Below, in pieces: positions 6,889 through 33,800 of a stretch of DNA of 64,000 nucleotides (position 1 is the first letter of the stretch; every line of letters begins with the position of its first letter). The notes below the pieces were generated by a model that had not been told where the DNA came from, did no database searches, and saw nothing but the letters and a program-made list of their open reading frames with translations. The stretch is taken from contig OZ249436.1 in NCBI GenBank assembly GCA_965235115.1, positions 6,388,001 through 6,452,000 of the forward strand, read 5' to 3'. This stretch comes from Laetmonice hystrix. Lineage: Eukaryota. Position numbers and translations under genes: made by a program.

Positions 6889-9800
6889 ATGGCGTTAACG
6901 ATGAGGGTGATATGCGGCGTGATTTTAATCTCAATATTACACTATGCTGTAGTGTATTGTGCACCAACTTTACCGGAGAAGCCTAAGACCGAAGGTAAAG
7001 TTTTGTGGTTGATCGCTAACGTTATTTTAGTACACCTCTCTGCTCTAACGTTAGGCCTAGGCCTAGGCTACTCGAACGCGTTATGAAAGATCTAGGATGG
7101 AACTGGAGTGGAAGTGCTTAGACTACTGACTACTGTTAGACGTCTAGTACTAGTACATTAACAATATAACGTTAGTAGGCCTACTGTAGTACTAGTAGGG
7201 CTACTGTCTGATGCAGACTGTAGCGTGTTCTGTTAATGTTATAATAACCATAATGTTCAGTGTTTAACAGTGTTACTGTTAGACTACTGACACTGTGACA
7301 GTGTTACTGTTACCGTACTGTGTTACTGTTAGCCTACTGAGTACTGTTGGACATGACACTACTTGCTAAGACACGACAGTTGAGTTGCTATTTTCCCGGA
7401 TTCCCAGTTAAAGTCTGACACGTGCACACTTCTACACCATTGTTGTTGGGCCCCGATTCATTTTGTTAATCGTATGACTCTCGCCGACTCGAAACTCGTC
7501 GTAATGCCCAGTGCACACTACGGTACACAATTTTCAGTCGGGATTGGCTATCTGAACAATTGCCGATAACTTGAGACTGACACTAGTGACAGTCGTGTAG
7601 TGTGCACCGGGCATAAGACTCCCGGTTGCCGACTTAAAACTCATCGTAACTTGTCTAAGTACCGTATCTAGTCGCCGAAAACTTTTAGGCCCTACCCTAA
7701 CTTCAGGCATACTTTCACGCACTTCCGTGAACGCACTTTGGCAACTTTGTCTTTGTGCACCTTGCAGCTGTTGCTGGGTGGATATCTTCTCTTGAATCAT
7801 TCTGACACTGCCTGACCCTTGACCTAAGAACAAGGTCAATCGGATGCATTAAAATAAAACTGCTATTCTTGTGCAGCAAAATAAGGCTGAGAGGCATAGG
7901 TGTGTGAAGTTAGGGCCTACAGTACAGTTAATATGTTTGGTTTGAACCTTGCATGCAGAAAAAAAAATTGTTTTACGAGTGCTCCCGCCGGCCAAAAGAA
8001 CGTTAACAACAGACAAGCGCGATTTCTTCTTGCAGACCACTTGAAAGTTTCAGTCTGAGTATTTTATGAGCATCAAAAATATAGATAAATTATAAGTATT
8101 ACCCCGGTACTTGACCTTTGACCGGGTAGCTGAGATGTTGGAAGAAGCCAATAACTTCTTTCTCCAATCAAAACTGAGTCATCCAGTATCATACCTGTCA
8201 TGTAAGGGGCTATGGTGATATTTGCTATGTGTGAGCTCAGGGCTGGTATGATTTAAATCAGTTGATTTAAATCATGATTTAAATCATGATTTAAATCACA
8301 GTAAAAAATTCAAAAAAATCATCAAAAATGATTTTTTTAAACAAAATCGAATGAAAAAGCAATATTTAAGACTGCAAGGGATGTCAAACATAGTATTATT
8401 AGACATACAGTACTAACTAGACCATTCTGACCAGATGTTTCCTGCCTGGATGCTCCTTATTAGTGATGGCAGAGAATAGGAGCCTCAGAGTTATCAGATT
8501 TTACCTCTTATCAGCTGGTAGAAATTTTTGCTGAGAGCAAGTAACAAACTCAACATAGCATACCCGGTAATAGAATTATTTTTAGGCCAATGTATTGTTT
8601 ATATTTAAAATATTGATAAATTCTCACTTTCAGAAACTAATAAATGTTTGTAGAATGGATATCTCATCAAGGCTTGATTTAAATCAAAAAAGTCGATTTA
8701 AATCAAAAAAATCAAAAATCATGATTTTTTACAAAAAAGTCGACTTTTTTACCAGCCCTGTGTGAGCTGGAAATGAGGCTCTGTTGGCCCCTGCTTGAAA
8801 TCCCTATATGGTTGCCTGTCATTTTGGATGATGCTATAGTAGGGACACCTGTGGTTGTGCTGTGTCCACTTGGAGCTGGGGACCAGAGAAAGTTCCGCGT
8901 TCGTCCAATCAGCTCCCTGTGCTATGACAGAAACATCATGGCCGCCTTCCTCTGAACTAGATAAACCATTGTCTCCAGACCCTTTTTCCGAGCGGCGAGC
9001 GACCTCTAGCGAGAAAAAAAGTCTGGTGATCAAGACTAGGTGCCATAATAATGCCAACAGCTTTGATGAAACACAGGGTTTGAATCAGTTCTCTTCTGTG
9101 TTCCACACTTGATGAGTGAAATAATGCTTATTTTTCGGCATGTGAACATAATATACACCACTTCCCTTGAATTTGTAACACATAGAAATCTCCAAAATGT
9201 GTTTTGTAATTTATCAACAGGATTACAAGACCCATCAGGACTAAAACATCAGGTAGAACCACAAACCCCAGGAGGACCTCAAAATCCAATGACACCACAA
9301 AACCACGCAGATCTGCCATCTCAAGCAGGCTCACAACCCCAACTAGGACCCCAAGGTCAAGTAAAACTGCCAAATCCAGCAGTACCACAAACCCCAGGAG
9401 GACCTCAAAATCCAATGAGATCACAAAACCACGCAGATCTGCCATCTCAAGCAGGCTCACAACCCCAACTAGGACCCCAAGGTCAAGTAAAACTGCCAAA
9501 TGCAGCAGTACCACAAACCCCAGGAGGACCTCAAAATCCAATGAGATCACAAAACCAAGGAGATCTCCCATCTCCAGCAGGCTCACAACCCCAACTAGGA
9601 CCCCAAGGTCAAGGAAAACTGCCAAATCCAGCAGTACCACAAACCCCAGGAGGACCGCAAAATCTAATGACACCACAAAACCATGCAGATCTGCCATCTC
9701 AAGCAGGCTCACAACCCCAACTAGGACCCCAAGGTCAAGGAAAACTGCCAAATGCAGCAGTACCACAAACCCCAGGAGGACCTCAAAATCCAATAACACC

Positions 9801-12800
9801 GCAAAACCAAGGAGATCTGCCATCTCAAGCAGGCTCACAACCCCAACTAGGACCCCAAGGTCAAGTAAAACTGCCAAATCGAGCAGTACCACAAACCCCA
9901 GGAGGACCTCAAAATCCAATGAGACCACAAAACCAAGCAGGTCTGCCATCTCAAGCAGACTCACAAACCCAACTAGGACCCCAAGGTCAAGGAAAACTGC
10001 CAAATCCAGCAGTACCACAAACCCCAGGAGGACCTCAAAATCCAATGACACCACAAAACCACGCAGATCTGCCATCTCAAGCAGGCTCACAACCCCAACT
10101 AGGACCCCAAGGTCAAGGAAAACTGCCAAATCCAGCAGTACCACAAACCCCAGGAGGACCTCAAAATCCAATGAGATCACAAAACCAAGCAGATCTGCCA
10201 TCTTCAGCAGGCTCACAACCCCAACTAGGACCCCAAGGTCAAGTAAAACTGCCAAATCCAGCAGTACCACAAACCCCAGGGGGACCTCAAAATCCAATGA
10301 GATCACAAAACCAAGGAGATCTCCCATCTCCAGCAGGCTCACAACCCCAACTAGGACCCCAAGGTCAACTGCCAAATCCACAAAACAAAGATAAACCGCA
10401 AAATTCAGCAGAACCACAAAACCGAGAGGGACCGCCAAATCCAATAAGACAACAAAACCAAGCAGATCTGCAAAAAAAACAAGTAGGACAGGAGAGCCCT
10501 CCCAAATATCCAGACCAGAATGGCAATCAGAACCAAGTACAAATACCAAATTCACAAGGACAAGGCAATTCTCAAGATCTACCAAGACTGCCAAATCTAG
10601 CAAATCTACCCACATCTTATGAACAGTCTAATTTGGAAAGGAATCCAGGTAAGTGATGGTGATCTTTTTATAAATTTACTATGTATACCAGGTAATTCTT
10701 TATTATATTTTTGATACACAGCCGAAGTTTTTCTCAAGTTCTATTGGCACTAGATCATCATCAAATTCAAAATGTCTGTTATTTATTCTATTCTGTAGTG
10801 TAGGCCTCGTAATGTTATTAGTATCAATTACAAAGATTCAAAATTCTATAAAGTTATGTGAATGTTGTCAGAATGAACAGGGTTGGAGTGCATTTTTCAA
10901 GACTCAAAAAACGTCTACTTTTTTTATTTTAGTGAATTCAATCGCATCATGGCAATGGTGGATGGGTTAGGTTTAAACCATATCAGATCTCTAGGTGATC
11001 AGTAAATATGAGTACACCATACCTATCATTGTAAGCATTTGAATTTTGAATCGTTTTATTTCCAGGTCAAGAGGGAAGCCAAGGTCAGAGGGTTCCTAAT
11101 TATGGTAAGTAATACTGGGTAATTAACATAACGTCTTCAATGGTTGATAACCTACAGGTAAAATTACAGGTTCACACACAGAATACTTCATGGGGAAGTG
11201 ACTGCGAGTTGATGACCTGTAAAATTACAGGGTCACACACAGAATACTTCATGGAGAAGTGACTGCGAGTTGATGACCTGTAAAATTACAGGTTCACACA
11301 CAGAATACTTCATGGGGAAGTGACTGCGAGTTGATGACCTGTAAAATTACAGGTTCACACACAGAATACTTCATGGGGAAGTGACTGCGAGTTGATGACC
11401 TGTAAAATTACAGGTTCACACACAGAATACTTCATGGGGAAGTGACTGCGAGTTGATGACCTGTAAAATTACAGGTTCACACACAGAATACTTCATGGGG
11501 AAGTGACTGCGAGTTGATGACCTGTAAAATTACAGGTTCACACACAGAATGCTTCATGGAGAAGTGACTGCGAGTTGATGACCTGTAAAATTACAGGTTC
11601 ACACACAGAATGCTTCATGGGGAAGTGACTGCGAGTTGATGACCTGTAAAATTACAGGTTCACACACAGAATACTTCATGGGGAAGTAAGTGACTGCTAG
11701 TGCCCTATCTGAAAGATGCTGTGACAAAAAAAAATCTGTCATGGCCATCTAACTTGTGAATCTGGGTCCCGTTTCTCATCTCCTTGTCGTGCGTTAACTG
11801 CTTGCTTGTCGTAAACTTAGAAATTAACGACAAGGTCTACGATACCCGTTTCTCATCCCTTGTCGTGCATTAGCTTGTCGTGCGCCTGCATATCACTGTT
11901 GCTAACGTCACAAATCTCTCAGCGGAGATCATTGTTCAATACAACGTCGTGACACAGTGAGCGTAAACCGGATGGAGCTGTTGTTTACGTTTACTGATTA
12001 TACGCAAATGCTGAATTTTTTGACAGTATAAATACTTACACTCCTAATCACGTCTGAAACAAATCATGTGATGACCTAAAAGTGTTTTTGCTTCGTTTTG
12101 TGTCTTTGCCGCCGACGATTGCGAAGCCCTCTAACATTAGAATGCAGCATCTATGCTCGACCCTAGTCGACTGTCAGTGAGATGCTTGGTCGGAATCAGC
12201 CACCCTACTTGGTATTTGGTTCTTTTTGGAGATTTTTGCCCATGCAATTCTTAAAAGAGGCCATATGGAGCCGAAAACATCAGTATTTACATGCCAGAGA
12301 AGTGGATTGACAAATTTTTGAGTCGTTGCGACAGCTTAACTACAGGGTCAGAGATGTCTTTATTTTGGCCTTGGTGGATGACACCATCATACAGGTTTTA
12401 ACACACGACAGGGGGTGAGAAACGCAATTTGTCTTTACTTGACAGTCTACGACAAACTTAACGCACGACAAGGGATGAGAAACGCACCCCTGTTGGCATC
12501 ACTTATAATATAAGCATTTCAGTGTCGAAACAATGTGCTTAGGACATGAGAAGGGCTCAGGTTAGACTTGGAGGAAACCTACAGTTGCTCTACAAAATAT
12601 GATGGTTATCTTTAAGACCAACTGAGCAAACACAATGTGATTTCTCGCAACTGTTGCACGATGGTTGCAGAACAGTCTGTCACAATAAGAATGAGTGGCC
12701 TGCAACAGCCTGCGACTGTTGCAGACATACAGTGCCAGAACTTCTGTGACTGTCGCAAGACTCCATTGTGTTGTGTGTAGATGAGCTGGGCTGAAATACT

Positions 12801-15800
12801 AGGTCACGACAGTCGCGCTGTAAGGGCTTGCAAGCAGTTGCAGAGGCTAATCCATCAAGAAAAATGACATTGCGAAAACCATTTGACTTTAAACTTAAAG
12901 CCACTCATTTATTTTATTGTGATTTTGAGGATCAAGGATGAAAGCAGTGATGGGCACTCAACCCAGCACAAATTACAGAGTGAAATTCCATCTTTTAATT
13001 AAAAACTCCATGGCTGCTGCAAGGGTATAAACGTTGGTGAATTCAGCCTCTTAGTTTTCATCTTAAAAGTATTATCTTATGTTCTGCATAATTCTACCTT
13101 ACCTTTTCGATAATGGGTCAACTCAAGATCATCACATGTTGACTGGACCTTGAAAACAAGGACCAGTTGCCTTTGCTTGGTGCAGTTTTCTTAGATTGTG
13201 GTATCGAGACACATACATCGGATTGTTAGTCTTAGTACAGTTTAGTTGTAAGTTGACATTGAAAGCTTTTCCTGAAGTATCAACTTACTGACAAAGCTAG
13301 GGGAAAACAAAATGTGTTTGAGCCTCATGTTTCAAATTATAGTTAGCGGGGGATCTGCCCCCAACCCCTTTTAATATTCCTAGAAGCAGCACTGAATGAC
13401 ACTGTTGGAGTAGGGATAAGCCTGCCACAGTGGCCCGTCAAGAGCACCAGTAGTGGGGGTATGCCCTCTACAAACCCTCCCACCACCAGGAAGACATCAG
13501 TGTCCACCAGTACCACCAGGGGGACAGGTTTGTAGGAAACCCATGGTTTGGCACAGTCTAGTATCTATGATCAAGTCTCTGAAATCTCTCTCTGTTGCTA
13601 CCTACTGGTTTTTCTTCAACATCTCTACATATATTGTGCTGTTGTGGTTTTCTACTAACTGAGGCTGGATTTAACTATTCGTACTTCAAAGGGCCATGGT
13701 TTGTTTGTACCGGTACTGGTTCGGATGACAAATAACAGGCCAAGCCTGGGAGCTAATTTTCTTTTATAAAGTTATACAGTTGATCATTTGAATCCATCAA
13801 CACTTGGAACACATTTTAGTGAAAGCACAAAAATCTGTAAAAGAGTTCTGTTGATTTAAAACCCGTTAATTTATGAGGTAAAAAAAGTCGGTCTGAGAAA
13901 AGTAGCGTGTAGGAATTGAATCCTGAGAACAGGCACAGATGGCATAAAAGAAAATACTACCTGGAATACGGCTGATGTTTATTATTAATGTGTTTTATTT
14001 TAAGTGGTTCATAAGAATTAAAAATTCGGGTTAAAGTTTCTCTTAATCTATTAGTCAAGTTTCCATTAAATTTGAAATGTTGCTCATAATTACTCTTCTC
14101 CTACTCGTAATAGTCATATTCTAATTATAGAATAATAAATAAATTAAGCTGTATGGATTTATTCCTGTTTTGGTCTCTCAGCTGTGAAAATATAAATTTA
14201 CAAATTTCAAGGCTTTTCATACTTCATATTTTATGATTTTCAAGATATCTCTTTTCTCAACCAAAAGTTAAGCCTAATCAGGATTAAGAAAATACACAGA
14301 ACAGAATTATGGTATACATGTGTACCGGTAAATATGTCATTTAGTTCTGGATTTCTCTTCAGGAGCTTATATATTTCAGCTACTGTTGTATTCAGATGGC
14401 ATCTTATCATCGTGAGCACCTTGATTTCAATGTCTTCATTATATATTCTCTGCCCTAAAACAGGAGAAAAATCCTATGGCCCATTGAGCTTTGTTGACTT
14501 TTGTAGAAAAAACTGCCACGGGTCCGGACAATCGGCCTCGCAAACCACAACCGCACATGGGGAAGACTGGCATAGGTTTGTTTCCGTATTCTTTTCTCTG
14601 TTATTTTCTGTTCTCAGAGCACAATTTTTGTATGGCATTACAGGGTTCGGGTACAGGGTTCCATTTGGACCTTACCTTTGACATAATCACAGCTATGGAG
14701 ATCATGGCATACAGTCTGAGCTGTAGCTTCAAAGCCTTCTATCACAGAAATAAGAGTAGGCCGCCCATGCAGTGATCCCCTGTAAAGTCGTTGTGTGGTT
14801 TAGGAGTCTTCAGGATTTGCATTGTACGGTCTTCCTGTGTAATTTCAGGGTCATAATTTTTGCTTTACATGTATATAAAAAACAGAAAGCAATGCCCCCA
14901 GCAGGTCTGTGGTCCATGACAGGCTAACTAATAATTATTTAAATAATGTTGTTCAAGGGAATTTCCCCCCAGTAATATATTTGATTTACTTCACCCTACA
15001 AGGAAAGGGTACTAATTGAGGTCAGTTACCCAAAGGCACAGGTACTAAATGCTTCAATGCCTTAGGCCTCTGCTTGCCCATAATCATGGCGAGAAACTGT
15101 GGTAGTAGATGATGTGGTGTTCAAAATGCTGGGCTAATAGATTGATATTTACCAAAAACTGACAGTTTTATTTGTTGTCTCTTACCTGTAGATATGGACT
15201 CGAATCGTGAACCTGGCCAGTTTCAAGGTGAGATGCCAGGGCCTTTCAAAGGTGAGAACCCAGCACAAATCATACTCTACAGGATATATCCTGGAAATTT
15301 TGGAAGGACTTGGGGACGTTTAGGGGGCACCTAGGACTGGCATTCTCAGGGAGGATATAGGAGGAAGTAGCCAATTTTTTGTTGGGAGGAGGGGGCGGTG
15401 GGGGCAGGTGAGACTCCCTGGCCGAGGTGAGTATTCAACACAAACCATCATTATTTTATAGGGGGTTGCGGTGCATCATAATAAGCTTAGGGCAGTTTTC
15501 TTCTCCCAAATAAGGACTTTTAATGTGGCCATTTTATGATTAATTAAGGTGACCTAAAGTGGCCAACCTTGCCAGCACTGGTGACTGAAATATCCATTAT
15601 CTCTTGTTAAATCATTTTATCCATTATGTTATCTGGCACTTTTATGATTATGAACAGATGAATTTATTCAAAGTTATACTTAAAATGGGTCAATTGCTTT
15701 AGGTCCAACAGAGGCACCACCAAAACCACAAGAAAAAGGTTTGTGGATTTTTGCCAATATGTAACTTCTTCAGGAATTATTTCACTAACACAGTTTATGA

Positions 15801-18800
15801 GTTAACAGAAAATGGTGGTGGGCACTGAACTTTCTTACAGATATTAGTCATGCATCTTTTAAAATAAACGGTTCCTCCATTCCGAATATGAGTGAAAACT
15901 AAAAGATAAAAGGTATGAATTCGGAAAAAGTAAGAACAATTTTATTGCCATGAAGGGAACAGCCGACAAAAGGAAAACGTCGTTATTGTTTATATGTGAA
16001 TATTTCTCATACCTTGGAACGTGCTGTTATCATACTTTGGAACAGGTGATATTTTCTGTGAGAAACTTGTTTAGAATTGACACTGTTTATTAAGCTTACA
16101 CGTAGTTTTGATGGTTTCTGATAAATGCACATTGTTTGGTGGCAGTCAACATGAGATAAACCTGAAGGATAGTCTACATCTCGTTTAACCTATAGTAACT
16201 GGGCCCGACATAGTCTAATTTGATTTATTTTCACGGTGGTTATATTTTCATGCAAAGGTGAATAATTGCATGAAACTAAGTCTGCCGGGTTACAAGTTGC
16301 ATGAATTTGGAGATTCATATTGATTTCCATGCTGGCCCCAGCATATTTTGTACTGGTATCTGTGTGCAGTGGCATGGGGCAGGACTATGATCAGAACAAT
16401 TAAAGGCAGTCGTCAGATCAAAATCAACAAAAGTGGCTTTTCTACAGAGTAGTAATTCTTTCTAGTACTTTGAAAAGTACCTAAAGTGGGCATGTCAACA
16501 TGGTTGCAGTGCAAGTTTCTACTTGTTCTTGGTTTGAATACCTAACTCCTGGTGATTACTCACTTAGAGGTGTTTACTGAGTCTAAGCTTTTACTCACCG
16601 CCATTTGACAAAGTCAGTTGACAAACTATAAAACTGCCTTGGGCTGGGTGAAAGGATCAGGCTGGATTCTAGGACTTGACTGTGTTTGGAAGGTGCTTTG
16701 TCTAATCTAATTAACAACCATGGATTTACTTGAAGATAAAGGAGGATCAACCCCGTTGTCAAGCTTTGTCATGCAGTAGGCTTTATTTTAACCTTGTGAT
16801 TGCAATGTGTATAATGCCTGCTGTTTTAAAGCTAGCGCCAATGACAGTTATGGTATCGCACCTGGGGGTCCGGGCAAAGATCCATTTAGGCCTGATCCCT
16901 TTGACCCCGACGAATTTGACCAGGAAGAGTTCGCAAACTTAGATGATCAGACAGATCTTGATGATGATGGATGGGATGACCGCGTTCCGAAACCCAAAGC
17001 ACCGGGTAAATGACCTCTACGTTTTTGTTTGAGAAACAGATGACCATATATTAATACTGGGGTATATGCAGTGCCCATAGTCGTCACTGATTGACACTAT
17101 ATTCAGGGTTCCCAGGGGTTTCAGGGAAACCAGATGAAGTCTGGGGTTTAAAAAAAGAAAGTCAAATCCTCGGAGAGTAATTCATGGTCAGGATGCCATT
17201 CTTCATAGCTGATGCTAGGTGAAAATGGACGGAGTCCTGAACCGGAAAAGTCTGGGAATGTTGTTAATCTGATGGCTTGGGAACCCTGATATATTGTATT
17301 CAAGGATGAGAGTATTCCGATTTTCCTTGGAAATCCGTGTTTTACCAGCTTATGTTTAGTCACCGTCAGTCGGCACACACATACCTGTGTACACATCTTC
17401 ATACACATAGAACACTTCCTTGAATTTTTACATCTACCAGGGACATTTTATCGGGGGGGCATTGCCCCCCCCCCTTGAATTTTGACAACCCCAAAAGGTC
17501 CAGAATTTGGGAGGCATATGTCGGAAAGAAAGGTCCACAATTATGGATGCTTTGTAAAATATATCAAAATTGGTACACCCAAAAAGTTTCTTATCTTTCT
17601 ATTTGCTGGTTTACCAGAGTTAAACCCTCCCCAGAATTCTTCCAAAGGCCCCCTCCAAAAAAAAAAAATCTCCCCGAAACAGAGTATCATCTCCTGGTGT
17701 GCAGGTTTCGTCTGGGTATCATCCGTATTATCGTCACCAGGACGGGACTGAAAGTGTAAAATACTCTCCCTGAAGACTGCCGGTGGAACCAGCATGTATC
17801 AGTGTTACGTTGGAGTGCTTAGAGACACTCGCTTATACTTTAGTTTCACTCCTTTATTCTAGCCACGATGTTACAAGGCTAATGGTAATCCACGGAGTGT
17901 CCGTATGTCCTCCCGGCAACTAACTAATGTCGGGGGTGCAGGCGGGGGCTTGTGGTGCCCCCCACAGTTCACTTAAGTCGCTTACAGGGTATAGCTTTTT
18001 AATGACACCTCCTTTGATTAATATATGAAAACCATATGTGCTGATATGATGGGCCATGTGGCCGTATCATCAGTGCAAAGAAATGTCAAGTGCACAATGC
18101 AGCAAAGCTAGAAATATTGCAAACATGCTTCCAAGCAGATTGGCTGTGCTAAATGTTGTAAGTTGAAGCAGTGCGCAGTCTGTCTCCATGTCACCATGAT
18201 AAGACTCAGGGCTGTGAAGTTTGTGGCTGTGCTGGGGCATCGTTTGGAGAAGGCTGTGACACTCTTCCATCTGTGGGTGTCGGATACATTGTTCCCTGCG
18301 TGGGTTTAAATGACTCGTGTTTCTTGTAGAAGATCTCGTGTTTGATCGTCCTGAAGACCAGATGGAAGATGATGACTCTTTCTCACAGCTTAATCAAGTT
18401 GATGGTAGGCCATGTGGTACCCTAGCTTTGGAAAGTCAACAACCTGCATGTTGGCCTCTTAGGGCATTATCAGTTTGTCTGGTAGGTCGAGCCATGTGGT
18501 ACCCTAGCTTTGGAAAGACCACAACCTGCATGTTGGCCTCTTAGGGCATTGTCAGTTTGTCTGGTAGGTCGAGCCATGTGGTACCCGAGCTTTGGAAAGT
18601 CCACAACCTGCATGTTGGCCTCTTAGGGCATTGTCAGTTTGTCTGGTAGGTCGAGCCATGTGGTACCCTAGCTTTGGAAAGACCACAACCTGCATGTTGG
18701 CCTCTTAGGGCATTGTCAGTTTGTCTGGTAGGTCGAGCCATGTGGTAACCTAGCTTTGGAAACTCAGTAATCTGCATGTTGGCCTCTTAGTACGTTGTCA

Positions 18801-21755
18801 ATTTGTCTGGTAGATGTGTGCATTCAAAGCATCATGGTCATGTATCTGGTAGCTTAGTGCATTTAACAGATTGTATGTTGTAAAAGGGCAATTTTTCTAT
18901 TCAATAATTATTTCAGTTTTATAAGGTAGTAGGTCTTTACATTTATTATAGGATTGCCTTGCGTTTTAACGTGTGGTGGCTCGTAACAGTAATTGGTATA
19001 TTGAATATAATTTGTTGGTTCTTTACTTGTTGGTGCCTGCATGGTCAGTACCTGTGTTGCACGTTGGCAGTACTGTTGGGGTAGAACAACATTGGCCAAT
19101 AGATGCAGGTCATCCTGTAGAGGGTGTAAGTGGTAGCTTCGAATATTACCGTTCGTGCCCGTGTCACCGTTACTGAAATCTCTGAGTGCTTTGTGAATAA
19201 GCCAACCCTTTGAGTCGTCGTATTTGAGATACCAGCGAGATCGAATCAAGTCCTATTGTAAGGTGGTAGGTCTGGTCTAGTTGTCTTGGTAGAAAGGTGT
19301 TGAAGGTGACAGCATGTTGTAACGGAGGCGTACATCTGCGTTAAAAACACTGTTTTCAGTTGCATGGTTGTAGCTCAACATTTCAGGAAGAACATGCTTT
19401 TACTTGCTCTACATATATCTGCATGCTTCGAATGTGAAAACGAGGCATAACTCGCAAATTGTCTAACATGATCGCAAAAAGAGAAGTAAATAAATATAAC
19501 ATATTTTGCAATAGCTTTTTGAATAAGGGTTTATTCTTCACATAGCTGTTAGTATTCGTTCAGAAACCGTTATTTTCGTTGTTGTAAAGATGTATATTTG
19601 TCATTTTTTAAACATCTTTATCCAAGCTTCAAGTAAGATTTTCGCTCACCATGCACATACATGTATCTCTTTCGCTGGCGCTTAAAATGTAATGTTGGCC
19701 ATAAAAACCCATCATTGTCTTTTCCTGTTAACGTTTTCAATTTTTATAAACTTGACATTTTTTTACAGGCCAACAGAATTCTCAGCCATCGAAAGGTCAG
19801 ATGAGTAATCCATATGGTAAGACGCCATCTAGCGGTCACTTCATGGCCTACTTCATCACTGCTGGTGTCTTCGTCATCATTGGATATCTTGCCTTCCACA
19901 ACAAACAAAAGGTGGGAAATTTGACCTTTGACATAGCCTAACCAAACCGACCCCGAGCCGGACTTACTGAACCCTTGTTAAAGTTCTACAAAAGCTGGTC
20001 TAGGACGCTATTTTAACTGGGTAAAGCATTCATCTTCAATGTCCTTAGTCTGGTAATCGTAATATAGTTGAAAGGAGAATGAGAAGTAAGAGTAAATTCT
20101 GAGCATGCTGGGAAAATGATGCATTTCAGATCCTGGCTGTAATCGTGGAGGGTCGCCAAGGGGACAGTCGTCGCCATGGCAACAAGGAATATAAAAGTCT
20201 TTCCTCCGATGACGCAAAGCCTCTTGTTGGATACTAGGTACATGAATGCAGTAAGGGGACTGTGTGATGGCAACTCTGGCCAGTAACCGGCACATAATCC
20301 ATCCTTAGGCTTACAACGTGTGCTCCAATCCTATGCTATGGCATCCAATAAAACTGATCGCAATAATTATAAATTATCGTGGGCTCAGACATTTAATATC
20401 TCAGAAATTTTGAAAATGAAAACTCGCTAGATTATACATTATGTCACACGTAGCACACCTCCCACTGAGCTGTATTTTATTTTGTCCCCGCTTTATAAGT
20501 GTTGAGTAGAAAAATAGCAGTTTTTTTCTGGTTGGATACAATAACGTGGAGGGCATGCCATTTGCTTTCAACTGCTGCTAACTTCATGACCATCCCTAAC
20601 CTCTCTCGCTTTTCATGATTCGTTTTATTGTATATCACTTTGTGAACTCCAACTTTGGTTTTACTATTTTTGTGTGTGTATGTTATTTTTCCTATTTCAC
20701 ACTTACACTTCATTTCCAAACAGTTTAAATTTTAAGTTTAAAAGTTTGAGCATATCGCTCCAGTATTGGAACTGGACTTATTTTACAGCTATATCAATTA
20801 TGTCTACTGAGCATAACGCATAAACAAATTGATTGAAAAATTGCTACATGTAGACCTATTGCTGACATTAAAAAATACACGTGTAATATGCTCAGAGGTG
20901 ATCTTTAAAAACAAAGGCTTGTTAAAAATTACATTTGGACCGCCGCAAGGCCTCCATGTATACTCACCTTTCACAGTACTGGTTGGAAATAAATGTCCCC
21001 CCCCCCCCCATTCCAATAAGTCGTATGTCGAACATGACAACCATGTCAAAATCACCGGAAAATCCAGGAGTTTTAGTTCCTCCCAAACTGAAGAGCAGTC
21101 GTGCTGTGATTGGTCACAGCACGATAACGTCAAATTAGCAGACGCTATGGCTGCATCCACACGCTGAGCAGGCTCTGGCACCAAAATGCTTATAACTTAA
21201 CTATTTGAAGCCCAATTCTGTTCAAATCCTTTTAAACTTGCTTAAAATTTCACGGCCTTTGTGCCTGGCCATGTGCCAACTGGGGCGTTATAATTGAGGT
21301 GAGATACAAGGTGTCGGGGATGGGCATAGTCGGAGCTGCCTCTAGTTCATCCTGTTTGACAAGTCGGTATGATTCGGAGTTTGAGTAACACGCACCATGA
21401 CTAATTCACATCAAACCTACTGATGATAACTTTACCAGTCTCAACCGTAAAGCCAGTCTGTAGAACTGATGAGATCCTGCAGTCCCCTTATGCATTCATT
21501 CACCTGGATCTCGGTGTATGCAGTCGATAAACGTGCACAAACCTGTGCAGTGGTGTTTCCAACATCTTGTGTTATCCAATTTGTATGATTTGTTTTTAGA
21601 TCATGGCATTCATCATCGAGGGCCGTGGTTCAAACAAGGGCAGACGGAGAGGAAGCTCAAACAGTACTACCGAATATCGCAGGTTAAAAAACAACGTCGA
21701 GGAAGCAATGCCAAGTCTAGACAAAAGTGCATCCACACAAAACTACGTCTATTGA
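6889..21755 (+). CDS. TGN46 (TGOLN2)/KCT2 (C5orf15)-family type I membrane protein, distal-tail isoform
   Basis: Exons 6889-6994 (signal peptide), 9221-10648, 11066-11104, 13384-13527, 15192-15227 or -15251, 15703-15738, 16832-17005 (acidic), 18330-18404 (acidic), 19769-19911 (TM: SGHFMAYFITAGVFVIIGYLAFHNKQK), 21600-21755 (IMAFIIEGR...EYRRLKNNVEEAMPSL...NYVY*). All phases fit. HF..Y......TM..HNK.K-I is the family signature; YRRL is a YxxPhi motif. Confidence 0.88.
7505..7613. mobile_element. Small PIF/Harbinger-like MITE
   Basis: TIR TGCCC(A/G)GTGCACACTAC with TAA on both flanks. Confidence 0.65.
8238..8760. mobile_element. hAT-type MITE
   Basis: Ends CAGGGCTGGT...ACCAGCCCTG; perfect 8-bp TSD TGTGAGCT (8230-8237, 8761-8768); subterminal GATTTAAATC palindromes. 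Confidence 0.85.
9259..10380 (+). repeat. Coding tandem repeat, 126 nt / 42 aa x about 9
   Basis: PQTPGGPQNPMTPQNHADLPSQAGSQPQLGPQGQVKLPNPAV units start at 9259, 9385, 9511 ... 10267 within exon 2. Confidence 0.95.
11149..11697. repeat. Intronic minisatellite, 59 bp x about 9
   Basis: Unit GATGACCTGTAAAATTACAGGTTCACACACAGAATACTTCATGGGGAAGTGACTGCGAGTT, copies near-identical. Confidence 0.95.
11765..12489. mobile_element. Harbinger-like MITE with CTG TSD
   Basis: Ends GGTCCCGTTTCTCATC...GATGAGAAACGCACCC, inverted subterminal CTTGTCGTGCGTTAA / TTAACGCACGACAAG, CTG on both flanks. Confidence 0.65.
18403..18812. repeat. Minisatellite, 82 bp x 5, starting at an exon donor
   Basis: TGGTAG-starting units at 18403, 18480, 18562, 18644, 18726 (remnant at 18808). 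Confidence 0.9.
20130..20237 (+). CDS. Alternative (proximal) terminal exon of the TGN46/KCT2-like gene encoding a second cytoplasmic tail
   Basis: tttcag acceptor, phase 0 matching the TM exon; encodes ILAVIVEGRQGDSRRHGNKEYKSLSSDDAKPLVGY*, homologous to the distal exon IMAFIIEGR...RR...EYRRL; own AATAAA at 20347-20352. Confidence 0.8.
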   Translation: MLAVIVEGRQGDSRRHGNKEYKSLSSDDAKPLVGY

Positions 21756-22185
21756 CAATATTTCAGTCGCAAGTTTACTTCTTGTGTGTAAATTATTTGA
21801 AGTGATGAGGCTGTCGGGTGAATTCAGCTGGTTACTGGGGGAAAAAACAATGAAAAAATTGGCCTTCTGTACCGTCAGCATATGAAAAGTAAGCATGATG
21901 GTTGTTATATACTGTATGACATGGCGCGGCCAATACAAAACATGAAATGGGAATTACTAGATATTGTGATGCATGTACCCTTTCGTAGTCCACGGGTCTG
22001 TTTTCTCACGTTTCGGGTGGAAAACACTGGTGATCGTAGGCTTGTGTACAGTGAAGGCACGTCACCTATAATTGAGGGGATCTCACATCTTCCTGGCCTA
22101 CTTATGGGGCGTCATGGAAGTGAGCATATACAAAGTGTGGAATTGGTTAAGGTATGGGACAGTAAAGATACAGATATCATTGGAA

Positions 22186-22630
22186 CAATTGTTGATATAT
22201 GTATCAATGGTTTGACAATTGTTGATATATGTATCAATGGTTTGACAATTGTTGATAAATGTATCAATGGTTTGACAATTGTTGATATATGTATCAATGG
22301 TTTGACAATTGTTGATATATGTATCAATGGTTTGACAATTGTTGATGTGTGTATCAATGGTTTGACAATTGTTGATGTGTGTATCAATGGTTTGACAATT
22401 GTTGATGTGTGTATCAATGGTTTGACAATTGTTGATGTGTGTATCAATGGTTTGACAATTGTTGATGTGTGTATCAATGGTTTGACAATTGTTGATGTGT
22501 GTATCAATGGTTTGACAATTGTTGATGTATGTATCAATGTTTTGACAATTGTTGATGTATGTATCAATGGTTTGACAATTGTTGATATATGTATCAATGG
22601 TTTGACGTTGATATATGTATCAATGGTTTG
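22186..22630. repeat. Minisatellite, 30 bp x about 14 (probable 3' UTR)
   Basis: Unit ACAATTGTTGATRTRTGTATCAATGGTTTG; explains the spurious repetitive ORFs 21882-22649 and 22112-22777. Confidence 0.95.
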
Positions 22631-30800: not shown

Positions 30801-33800
30801 TATATAAAAACATAATGATAATCAACCAACTATCTCATATTCATTGTGAATAAGCACGTTTCTCACAGGCACCTGCAAAACAACGGACTGAGGATGAGAC
30901 GTAGTGGCGTCTTTGCGGATCTCAAGAATCTTCTAAACTTGTAAGTACAGATACGCAACTGAAATACGCAATTTTAAAGTTAATTTGTCTGATTAATTTA
31001 CTTATCGAAGGCCGTATTGTCTTGCTGTTATCAGCACTAAAAGTTATTACCTATCTTCGAGGAGAAAACGTTATAGGTTACGATTTTCATATTGAATGTA
31101 TGCATGGTTTTTTTTGCAGGGACCTAAGGGGCAATGAACTTATTCTTGTAAATGAAGCCGACATTAGTATCGTCAGAATGGCCAAACTGTGAGTATGAGT
31201 ATTAAAATTAACGGATTAATATCATAACCAAGGATGTTGTGTTCTCTAGGCACGCAATTAGCATTCGTTTTGATGCTATACACAGGGGATTCGTCAAGTT
31301 GAAAATGGAAGACAAATCAAAGACAACAAAATAGCAAAATCTGATTAATTGACGTGATCCACTTGCGTTGCGATGCTTCCGATTCACACCTTGCGCGGTC
31401 TTACGAGTTCTTCCGAGGACAAAATTCCAAATCGGGAATACACGCAAGCATTTTAAGTGAATCACGCATTACGAGAGTTCACGAGTGTTCCGAGGGCTTC
31501 AGGGGTCCGTTCCACTAAGCCCGAAAGACGTCTTTGAAATGGTCGCTGAGCCCAAAGAGGTCTTTGCGGCGACGGGTGTTCCACTAAGCTCCTATTCTTT
31601 AACATTGGCGCCGCAAAGACGTCTTTCCAAAGACGTCTTTGCTAAAGACGTCTTTCGTTAGTGGAACGGACCCCAGACGTCTTACGAGTGCCAGAGCGCT
31701 CTCGGGACCTCCTTACGAGCAGATCAAAAAGATATTATCAGAAGAGTGCATAGTGCGCGTGGCGTCGCGTAAGATATGGGAAGATGCATAAAGAGTTCGT
31801 AAGCACTCGGAAAAGCGCGGAAGGTCTAAAGCGAACCCAAAAACTTCTTCCAATTCTTGTTCCTCACCTTCGCGGGTGCTTTCGCGGGTTACGCAAGCCT
31901 ACGATTCCTTACGCGGCCTAAAGCGTGAAGCGGCCTAAAGCGGTGTTTCCATTAACGCGGCTGCGGCCCGGCTGCGGTCCGGACACGGGTACGGCTGATA
32001 AAGCGGTGTTTCCATTAACGCGGCTGCGGCCCGGCTGCGGCCCGGCTGCGGTCCGGGCACGGGTACGGCTGATATCGCACGTCGTTGTTTTTAATGTAGG
32101 TGTTTCCATTAATGCGATCTCCGTACGGGGCCCGTACGGGCGTCGCATGCGGCTGTTCCCGATCGCGTCATGGAGCGATTCGAGAACAGCCGCAGATGAG
32201 CCGCATGAGGGATCCCCTTGATCCTAGGTGGTCACGTGCATGTTGTTCACTCAAAAAATGGATGGCACCATGCCTCACGTTGTCAGCAAGCAAGATATCC
32301 AAAAACTTAACGAAAAACTTATCGATTCGGCAGGTGTATGGCCTATGACCTTATACCAACAACATTGAGACGCAGCCGGGACGCACCTTTAAAAACAACG
32401 ACGTGTCTTATCAGCCGTACCCGTGCCCGCACCGCAGCCGGGCCGCAGCCGCGTTAATGGAAACACCGCTTTAAGCGGCCCGTCCGGGCGTCGCATGCGG
32501 CTCTTCCCGATCGCGTCATGGAGCGATTCGAGCACAGCCGCAGATGAGCCGCATGAGGGATCCCCTTGATCCTAGGTGGTCACGTGCATGTTCTTCCGCA
32601 TCCGACGCCCGGACGGGCGCCGTACGGAGATCGCATTAATGGAAACACTTACATTAAAAACAACGACGTGCGATATCAGCCGTACCCGTGCCCGGACCGC
32701 AGCCGGACCGCAGCCGCGTTAATGGAAACACCGCTTTATCAGCCGTACCCGTGCCCGGACCGCAGCCGGGCCGCAGCCGCGTTAATGGAAACACCGCTTT
32801 AAGCGGTGTTTCCATTAACGCGGCTGCGGTCCGGGCACGGGTACGGCTGATATCGTACGTCGTTGTTTTTAATGTAGGTGTTTCCATTAATGCGATCTCC
32901 ATACGGGGCCCGTACGGGCGTCGCATGCGGCTCTTCCCGATCGCGTCATGGAGCGATTCGAGCACAGCCGCAGACGAGCCGCATGAGGGATCCCCTTGAT
33001 CCTAGGTGGTCACGTGCATGTTCTTCACTCAAAAAAGGGATGGCACCATGCCTCACGTGGTCAGCAAGCAAGATATCCAAAAACTTAACAAAAAACTTAT
33101 AGATTCGGCACGTGGCTGTCCTATGACTCTATACCAACAGCATTGGGACGCAGCCGGGCCGCACCTTTAAAAACAACGACGTGCCATATCAGCCGTACCC
33201 GTGCCCGCACCGCAGCCGGGCCGCAGCCGCGTTAATGGAAACACCGCTTAAAGCGGTGTTTCCATCGCATGCGACGTCCGGACGGGCGCCGTACGGAGAT
33301 CGCATTAATGGAAACACTTACATTAAAAACAACGACGTGCGATATCAGCCGTACCCGTGCCCGGACCGCAGCCGGGCCGCAGCCGCGTTAATGGAAACAC
33401 CGCTTTACGAGTACTTTTACGTACTTCCGAAGCTTCCGAGAGAGAAAAAGTCGTAGACGCGCAGAAGCCATCGCAACGCAAGTGGATCACGTCCATTAGT
33501 CTTGATCACCAGACCCTTGTGAATAGGACCTTTTACCTTTTGAATTCGATTATGTTTTCTTCGTTGTAATCACACCCAGGGCCGTACTCGGGGGGGGGGG
33601 GGCGGGAACCCCCTGGCGTTCATTGGAAAAATATTGTAAATTGCATCAGAATATACCATTTCAAAATTAGAATTCAAAATTTTCCGAAGAAGCTACCTCT
33701 CTGCCCTGACACCTTCCCCGTTCATAGTGGGAATTGTAGATCCTCTAACCCTCACAATGACAAAATATGGACTCCACGTGTTACTATATATAGCTACTGG

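What the first reader, a model, noticed from the sequence alone, without database searches (positions are those of the whole stretch)
19912..21755. Duplicated alternative last exons give the TGN46/KCT2-like protein two different sorting tails
Seen: after the TM exon there are two homologous phase-0 terminal exons, each with a stop and a candidate downstream AATAAA. 20130-20237 gives ILAVIVEGRQGDSRRHGNKEYKSLSSDDAKPLVGY*; 21600-21755 gives IMAFIIEGRGSNKGRRRGSSNSTTEYRRLKNNVEEAMPSLDKSASTQNYVY*. The proximal exon is absent from the ORF track. Established: YxxPhi motifs bind AP mu subunits (TGN38 SDYQRL) and [DE]xxxL[LI] motifs direct endo-lysosomal sorting. The proximal tail has YKSL plus a dileucine-like DAKPLV; the distal has YRRL plus the KCT2-like EAMPSL..Y end. 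Inference: a LAMP2-like tail switch routes one luminal domain to different compartments.
Basis: partly seen in the sequence, partly recalled or inferred. Interest (0 to 1): 0.75.

Follow-up and report, generated by a model that had tools for sequence, protein, structure and literature searches.

The report
Stop-exon switch shortens TGN46 tail
In this invertebrate, a Golgi membrane-protein gene of the TGN46/KCT2 family has a duplicated tail exon that is either spliced in, giving a short tail, or skipped, giving the ancestral long tail; this likely changes how the protein is recycled, and a predicted long-range RNA helix over the exon's splice site may set the ratio.

Summary
Both tails are real, but the proximal exon is not a last exon. 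One spliced run (X4) shows three GT-AG joints: 19911>20130, 20237>21600 and the skip 19911>21600, at depths 56.6, 56.6 and 42.9 against 99.6 on the distal exon. So exon A (20130-20237) is an internal cassette whose donor directly follows its stop codon. Both mRNAs share the distal exon as 3' end, and the stop lies 0 nt from the junction, so NMD is not expected. A is an old duplicate of B (family HMM E=5e-7; 8 of 14 identical residues use different codons). B is the conserved family tail. A keeps the YxxL core but lacks the 22-residue extension that ends [FYVIL][IV]Y in 22 of 24 homolog tails. New here: a predicted single-copy 29-bp helix (-42.8 kcal/mol; 0 of 300 shuffles) pairs A's stop and donor with a site 90-120 nt before B. 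Another animal's locus (L009) has the same short-then-long exon pair but not the helix; three abalones annotate short and long tails. Different sorting is untested; DAKPLV is not a canonical dileucine signal. Verdict: new variant of a known kind.

The parts
6889..6994 (+). Exon 1: start codon and signal-peptide-like hydrophobic stretch
   Evidence: Sequence; in frame with the downstream chain, no stop in 627 codons. Not covered by the laid RNA stretch.
9221..10648 (+). Exon 2: P/Q/G-rich luminal repeats (126-bp unit, 8.8 copies)
11066..11104 (+). Exon 3 (39 nt), luminal
   Evidence: Its sequence is the loose end of the X4 contig before 14507
14507..14575 (+). Luminal exon (69 nt)
   Evidence: X4 joint 14575>15192
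15192..15251 (+). Luminal exon (60 nt)
   Evidence: X4 joints
15703..15738 (+). Luminal exon (36 nt)
   Evidence: X4 joints 15251>15703 and 15738>19769
19769..19911 (+). Transmembrane exon ending HNKQK, phase-0 donor
   Evidence: X4 joints; 39 of 50 phmmer hits share the TM-HNKxK pattern
20130..20237 (+). Exon A: duplicated tail exon, internal cassette, 35 codons plus TAG as its last three bases; short tail with YKSL
   Evidence: Joints 19911>20130 and 20237>21600 in one 163-nt contig, depth 56.6; HMM E=5e-7
20230..20262 (+). Helix arm 1: covers exon A's stop codon and 5' splice site (-8 to +25)
   Evidence: single copy in the genome at up to 2 mismatches
20347..20352 (+). Intronic AATAAA inside the helix loop; no sign of use in X4
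   Evidence: an X4 contig joins across it
21480..21510 (+). Helix arm 2: 90-120 nt upstream of exon B's acceptor
   Evidence: single copy at up to 2 mismatches
21600..21755 (+). Exon B coding part: ancestral long tail with YRRL and the conserved C-terminal extension; becomes 3' UTR when A is included
   Evidence: Skip joint 19911>21600, depth 42.9; PF17818 E=3.8e-5; HMM E=7.5e-23
21756..22190 (+). Shared 3' UTR (at least this far; end not mapped)
   Evidence: One X4 contig covers 21598-22190 without a joint, depth 99.6

Best explanation
A TGN46/KCT2-family gene makes a short-tail and a long-tail form by including or skipping a duplicated, stop-ending cassette exon, and the two forms likely differ in post-Golgi recycling, with a predicted RNA helix over the cassette's donor likely acting as the brake on inclusion. 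Shown: with exon A in, translation ends at A's last three bases and exon B becomes 3' UTR (662 aa); with A out, B gives the tail (678 aa); both occur in one sample at about 57:43. From established rules: a stop 0 nt before the junction is not an NMD target, so both mRNAs should be translated, and they share one 3' end. Inferred for the protein: both tails keep the YxxL signal for AP-mu-dependent uptake and return to the TGN; only B has Arg at Y+2, which mu2 prefers, and the 22-residue extension ending [FYVIL][IV]Y, probably a binding site for a second sorting factor (PDZ-type or NxxY-reading FERM/PTB adaptor; motif classes recalled). The short form would thus cycle with less retrieval or another recycling route, rather than go to lysosomes. 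Inferred for the RNA: A has the weakest acceptor and donor of the gene; its donor is free until polymerase has made arm 2 about 1.2 kb further on, then the helix buries it, so inclusion would be a race between U1 binding and helix formation.
For: Three GT-AG joints with additive depths, absent from the three DNA-like runs. Contig lengths fit one bubble (163 = 55 + 108). A is under protein-level constraint: 8 of 14 identical residues use other codons, flanking introns show no long shared repeat, and A scores higher against a Mytilus tail (75) than against B (43). 22 of 24 distinct homolog tails end [FYVIL][IV]Y, 14 of 24 NxxY. Short/long pairs recur: L009 has a 31-aa proximal exon with YQRL and a GC-type donor-like site right after its TAG, then a 48-aa long exon, and no AATAAA between them; L007 has a 35-aa short exon with a donor-like site about 25 nt past its stop; three Haliotis species have X1 long and X2 short tails. 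Helix: 29 pairs, -42.8 kcal/mol, 0 of 300 shuffles, the other 7 donors -15.8 to -27.7; 25 of 29 pairs at probability 0.9 or more in the whole-intron fold, and the cost of opening the U1 site rises from 5.4 to 11.6 kcal/mol once arm 2 exists; both arms single-copy. A acceptor 9 of 20 pyrimidines, lowest of 8; A donor-U1 duplex -5.5, weakest of 8 used donors. mu2 preference and YXX-phi roles: PMC2133128 passages. 50-nt rule: PMC13187750 abstract. Donor masking by pairing: PMC6191721 sections 10 and 14.
Against: One RNA-like run, one sample, contigs only; depth is a rough measure and two joints have under 31 letters on one side. No protein or localisation data. The helix is not at the matching place in L009 (-25.5; 327 of 500 shuffles as low), and no close relative was available for compensatory changes. 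It was noticed after a repeat scan, and 29 of 1,897 other 33-mers in the window pair as strongly within 1.3 kb (18 in a satellite block, 7 in G/C-run elements, 4 others). Exon A is included in about 57% of transcripts despite the helix, so it is at most a partial block and could instead help splicing. No A-type tail among the 24 spliced homolog tails; 1 of the 2 genomic loci that reach a long exon (L012) has no proximal copy. No splicing evidence for L009 or L007. Most family members have Lys, not Arg, at Y+2. In human TGN46, TGN export depends mainly on the luminal domain (PMC10928510 passages).
Confidence: 0.6

Rival explanations
1. Same two-tail cassette, but the helix works as a bridge: it holds A's weak donor near B's acceptor and loops out the intronic AATAAA sites (20347, 20988), so that A-containing transcripts are spliced on to the shared 3' end instead of being cut in the intron.
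For: Arm 2 ends 90 nt before the acceptor and the loop holds both AATAAA sites; no A-terminal form seen; this role is proposed as a hypothesis in PMC8052449 (passages).
Against: The helix covers the U1 site itself and doubles its opening cost; L009 has neither the helix nor an AATAAA there, which fits but does not test it.
Confidence: 0.2
2. One reading: A is a composite exon that in other tissues ends at the 20347 signal, giving LAMP2-like alternative last exons and a lysosome-bound short form through DAKPLV.
For: AATAAA 110 nt after the stop; a masked donor could favour a terminal form, as for PGRP-LC; only one sample was seen.
Against: In X4 inclusion plus skipping accounts for the distal depth; DAKPLV is non-canonical and not shared by other short tails; no C-terminal GYxx-phi; LAMP2 exons swap the TM too (PMC10549195 passages).
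Confidence: 0.1
3. The short tail is a tolerated, functionally equivalent leftover of an exon duplication, and the helix is chance.
For: Both tails keep the same YxxL; the helix is not conserved in L009; about 1.5% of window 33-mers pair as strongly.
Against: Synonymous-biased divergence and kept motifs in A; about 57% inclusion; short/long pairs in other animals; single-copy arms sitting exactly on the alternative donor.
Confidence: 0.1

Closest known systems
Human TGN46 (TGOLN2) / rat TGN38 and isoforms TGN48, TGN51
   Same: Type I membrane protein, disordered repeat-rich luminal domain, tail with YXX-phi; human TGN46 has a 35-aa tail with YQRL four residues from the end (PMC10928510 passages), i.e. 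the short type. Isoforms TGN48 and TGN51 are listed in PMC9988951 (passages); that they differ in the tail is recalled.
   Different: Here the two tails come from two homologous exons, and the long one is the conserved form across molluscs, Lingula and other invertebrates.
KCT2 / C5orf15 (Pfam PF17818)
   Same: Tail B matches the last 32 positions of the profile (155-186 of 187, E=3.8e-5); homologs pass the cut-off.
   Different: Tail A has no Pfam match and lacks the extension; only one PF17818 match in this genome, so one gene supplies both tail types.
LAMP2A/B/C alternative exon 9
   Same: One luminal domain, homologous alternative C-termini.
   Different: LAMP2 uses alternative last exons that also swap the TM; here the TM is shared, the proximal exon is internal and the 3' end is shared.
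RNA-structure-controlled 3' variable regions (Drosophila PGRP-LC, CG42235, Pip) and conserved long-range pairings (PCCRs)
   Same: Long-range pairing that masks a 5' splice site near duplicated 3' exons.
   Different: One helix, no second strong partner for either arm; no conservation or mutational proof; the exon is a stop-ending cassette, not a terminal cassette.

Membership tests
TGN46/KCT2 family | Signal peptide, long low-complexity luminal domain, one TM, short tail | tested here: met
   Open chain of 627 codons plus tail; repeats in exon 2; signal peptide judged by eye
TGN46/KCT2 family | TM-HNKxK then IxAxxxEG..YxxL, homologous to named members | tested here: met
   Hits named TGN integral membrane protein in Haliotis, Octopus, Pomacea, Mytilus, Lingula
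TGN46/KCT2 family | Pfam PF17818 gathering score 26.2 bits | tested here: inconclusive
   Tail B alone 24.4 bits; the spliced protein was not scanned; homologs with TM plus long tail pass (29.6-36.7 bits)
TGN46/KCT2 family | TGN localisation and cycling via the surface | not testable with these tools
   Needs cell experiments
Tandemly duplicated alternative exon | Homologous neighbouring exons in the same phase, both used | tested here: met
LAMP2-type alternative last exons | Each exon is terminal with its own 3' end, mutually exclusive in the mRNA | tested here: not met
   A is spliced on to B in X4; other tissues not seen
LAMP2-type alternative last exons | Alternative exon carries the TM and a C-terminal GYxx-phi | tested here: not met
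   TM exon is shared; no GYxx-phi in A or B
Acidic dileucine signal | [DE]xxxL[LI] | tested here: not met
   Only the relaxed form DAKPLV; none in the other short tails
Poison (NMD) exon | Stop more than 50 nt upstream of a junction | tested here: not met
RNA-structure-regulated splicing (PGRP-LC / PCCR type) | Strong complementary arms overlapping a splice site | tested here: met
RNA-structure-regulated splicing (PGRP-LC / PCCR type) | Conservation with compensatory changes | tested here: inconclusive
   Absent in the distant locus L009; no close relative held
RNA-structure-regulated splicing (PGRP-LC / PCCR type) | Disrupt-and-restore mutations change splicing | not testable with these tools
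   Needs a minigene

The most novel reading that the evidence does not exclude
Short (TGN46-type) and long (KCT2-type) tails are an ancient functional pair: invertebrates make both from one gene by splicing, by an exon duplication here and in L009 and by another route in abalones, while vertebrates split them between the paralogs TGOLN2 and C5orf15. In this animal the choice is timed by a co-transcriptional RNA helix that buries the donor next to the stop codon. The long tail's C-terminal [FY][IV]Y would be an undescribed sorting signal that also explains what KCT2 does.
Probability: 0.2. Interest if true: 0.75.

Novelty: new variant of a known kind. Interest (0 to 1): 0.55.

Why it matters
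TGN46 is a standard trans-Golgi marker and a cargo sorter; its relative KCT2/C5orf15 has little functional literature (search listing only). A natural on/off switch for the family's conserved C-terminal extension, seen spliced both ways and recurring in other animals, singles that extension out as a separable sorting module and gives ready-made chimeras to test it. The design itself (duplicated exon ending in a stop at the donor, shared 3' end, helix over the donor) is a compact way to swap C-termini without changing the 3' end or triggering NMD, and would be missed by annotation that expects alternative last exons.

Tried and rejected
Run search listed no holder on record as RNA; X4 was taken as RNA from its spliced joints. 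X4 has no cover at 20302-20849, noted only together with the contig that joins across it. Word-index protein searches with the TM exon and with tail B found nothing; the HMMER search and an alignment query did. ESM Atlas gave no usable hit. PDB: two chance hits at E 0.46 and 1.3, none with alignment A1. Rfam: one weak hit, E=0.7. Transposon end for the helix arms: rejected, each arm core occurs once in 627 Mb at up to 2 mismatches and DNA depth there is single-copy, while the intron middle (20850-21400) is a high-copy repeat; an extinct family cannot be excluded. Competing helices: next-best partners are -27.2 for arm 2 (inside exon A) and -21.2 for arm 1, near background. One ancient versus several duplications: the 32-column tree is unresolved; L009 and L007 proximal exons group at 87/92, exon A does not join them, and neither one origin (p-AU 0.26) nor a lineage-specific copy (p-AU 0.09) is rejected (Haliotis X2 left out, tails cut 6 residues after YxxL). 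Paralog elsewhere in the genome: only exon B matched PF17818. Literature: ten searches showed no paper on invertebrate TGN46 tail exons or on TGOLN2/C5orf15 isoform separation; PMC4494069 has 0 occurrences of either name in its main text (supplements not read); subscription papers are not held. Earlier scan findings: four look-ups, nothing. No complex prediction was run: a YxxL peptide on a mu subunit is a textbook pair.

Full report
Setting. The window lies on contig C1 of a 627-Mb, 35-contig genome with no relatives held. Its mitochondrial COX1 reads AAA as lysine (9 AAA, 0 AAG), which fits the invertebrate code and not the echinoderm/flatworm one; the COX1 motifs look annelid-like to me (recalled, not tested). 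The gene runs from an ATG at 6889 through seven exons to the TM exon at 19769-19911 without a stop in 627 codons. [quoted passage not shown]

The observation. Both translations are exact. A and B are homologous: score 43, reached by 1 of 10,000 shuffles; 0 of 1,419 other AG-anchored peptides reach the anchored scores. An HMM built from 22 homolog tails finds B (E=7.5e-23) and A (5e-7) among 5,201 six-frame segments of the window and eight loci, the best unrelated segment scoring E=7.8. Of 14 identical residues, 8 use different codons, and the flanking introns share no long repeat: an old duplicate kept at the protein level.

RNA. Four runs of one sample hold the stretch; none is on record as RNA. 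Three behave as DNA. The fourth, X4, skips GT-AG introns and shows six joints, among them 19911>20130 and 20237>21600 in one 163-nt contig (depth 56.6) and 19911>21600 (depth 42.9); the distal exon has depth 99.6. Exon A is therefore used, but as an internal cassette: its donor follows the TAG directly, and B becomes 3' UTR. The depths add up, so a form ending at the 20347 AATAAA is not sizeable in this sample. Limits: one sample, unknown tissue, contigs only, rough depths, and sides of 25, 25 and 31 letters at the joints. A stop counts as premature when a junction lies more than 50 nt downstream (PMC13187750, abstract and outline); here the distance is 0 and no further joint appears to 22190, so NMD is not expected.

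What differs between the tails. Among 24 distinct spliced homolog tails, all have YxxL/V, 22 end in [FYVIL][IV]Y and 14 in NxxY; in the long tails aligned the end lies 20-24 residues after the motif. B is this form. A keeps ILAxxxEGR, a basic patch and EYKSL, then stops 11 residues later. DAKPLV is not [DE]xxxL[LI] and sits on the family's E-x-M-P-S-L stretch. mu2 prefers Arg at the second X (PMC2133128, passages): B has it, A has Ser, though most homologs have Lys. Human TGN46 has a 35-residue tail with YQRL four residues from the end, needed for return to the TGN, while its export depends mainly on the luminal domain (PMC10928510, passages). So A is of the TGN46-like short kind and B of the KCT2-like long kind. 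That they sort differently is inferred.

Other animals. A metagenome scan gave 20 loci from 133 pattern matches: by my reading 13 genomic, 5 spliced with long tails, 2 unrelated. Three genomic loci show a tail exon. L009 has a short exon (31 aa, YQRL, E=1.1e-4) followed directly by a GC-type donor-like site, then a long exon (48 aa), with no AATAAA between. L007 has a short exon (35 aa, E=4.7e-8) with a donor-like site about 25 nt past the stop, and the contig ends there. L012 has only the long exon 2.5 kb after the TM. The other 10 show no tail exon in the DNA held. No splicing data exist for these loci and their hosts are unnamed. Three Haliotis species annotate a long X1 and a short X2 that share the tail up to NVEE, probably by an internal donor (inferred). 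No protein with an A-type tail was found. The tail tree cannot tell one origin from several.

An unexpected helix. A repeat scan showed an inverted pair at A's donor. Positions 20230-20262 pair with 21480-21510 in 29 base pairs at -42.8 kcal/mol; 0 of 300 shuffles reach this (mean -24.3, sd 2.5), 1 of 282 nearby real 33-mers exceeds it, and the gene's other 7 donors give -15.8 to -27.7. Window-wide, 29 of 1,897 other 33-mers are as strong, 25 of them in a satellite block or G/C-run elements. The helix forms in the minimum-energy and centroid folds of the whole intron, 25 pairs have probability 0.9 or more, and opening the U1 site costs 11.6 kcal/mol with arm 2 against 5.4 without. Both arm cores are single-copy, and neither has a second strong partner. 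A has the poorest acceptor (9 of 20 pyrimidines) and the weakest donor-U1 duplex (-5.5) of the eight tested. Against: the find is post hoc, L009 lacks it (-25.5; 327 of 500 shuffles), and inclusion is still about 57%. Masking of a donor by long-range pairing is shown for PGRP-LC (PMC6191721, abstract, sections 10 and 14); bridging and suppression of intronic poly(A) are discussed, the latter as a hypothesis, in PMC8052449 (passages). I favour a timed brake over a bridge because the helix covers the U1 site.

Comparison and verdict. It is a TGN46/KCT2-family gene with a tandemly duplicated alternative exon, a known class (PMC9013439, passages). It is not a LAMP2-type system: LAMP2 swaps last exons including the TM (PMC10549195, passages). 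TGN46 isoforms are listed in PMC9988951 (passages). Separation of homologous exons into paralogs is a known process, and PMC4494069 does not name this pair in its main text (passages; supplements not read). Ten literature searches showed no description of this switch; other papers were seen as listings only. Shown: two tails, cassette splicing, shared 3' end, homology. Predicted: the helix. Inferred: NMD escape, sorting difference, kinetic control, and the link to the vertebrate paralogs. New variant of a known kind; interest 0.55.

Noticed in passing
window 13384-13527, 16832-17005, 18330-18404 (+): Three further in-frame phase-1 candidate cassette exons for the luminal domain (S/T-rich with an N-glycosylation sequon; two acidic D/E-rich), all skipped in X4. 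The luminal domain may be alternatively spliced too.
   Followed up: partly
window 9258-10368: Coding tandem repeat, 126 bp (42 aa) x 8.8 at 94% identity, in the luminal exon; Haliotis P0053 has unrelated luminal repeats.
   Followed up: no
window 20850-21400: Very high-copy repeat inside the A-B intron (DNA depth up to about 70,000 against about 55); it lengthens the helix loop.
   Followed up: no
window 31945-33370: GC-rich block of inverted and direct repeats giving duplexes of -49 to -79 kcal/mol.
   Followed up: no
window 14414-14646: Dense cluster of other letters read at full depth in all three DNA-like runs, and within the exon also in X4: a divergent allele or a window haplotype that the contigs do not carry.
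   Followed up: no
P0045/P0053, P0046/P0054, P0074/P0098 (Haliotis): Annotated X1/X2 pairs differ only by loss of the conserved C-terminal extension (34 versus 48 residues of tail), a separate route to a short tail.
   Followed up: partly
L009:2677-2699: Weak local hairpin (pair probability about 0.5) over the GC-type donor-like site after the proximal stop.
   Followed up: partly
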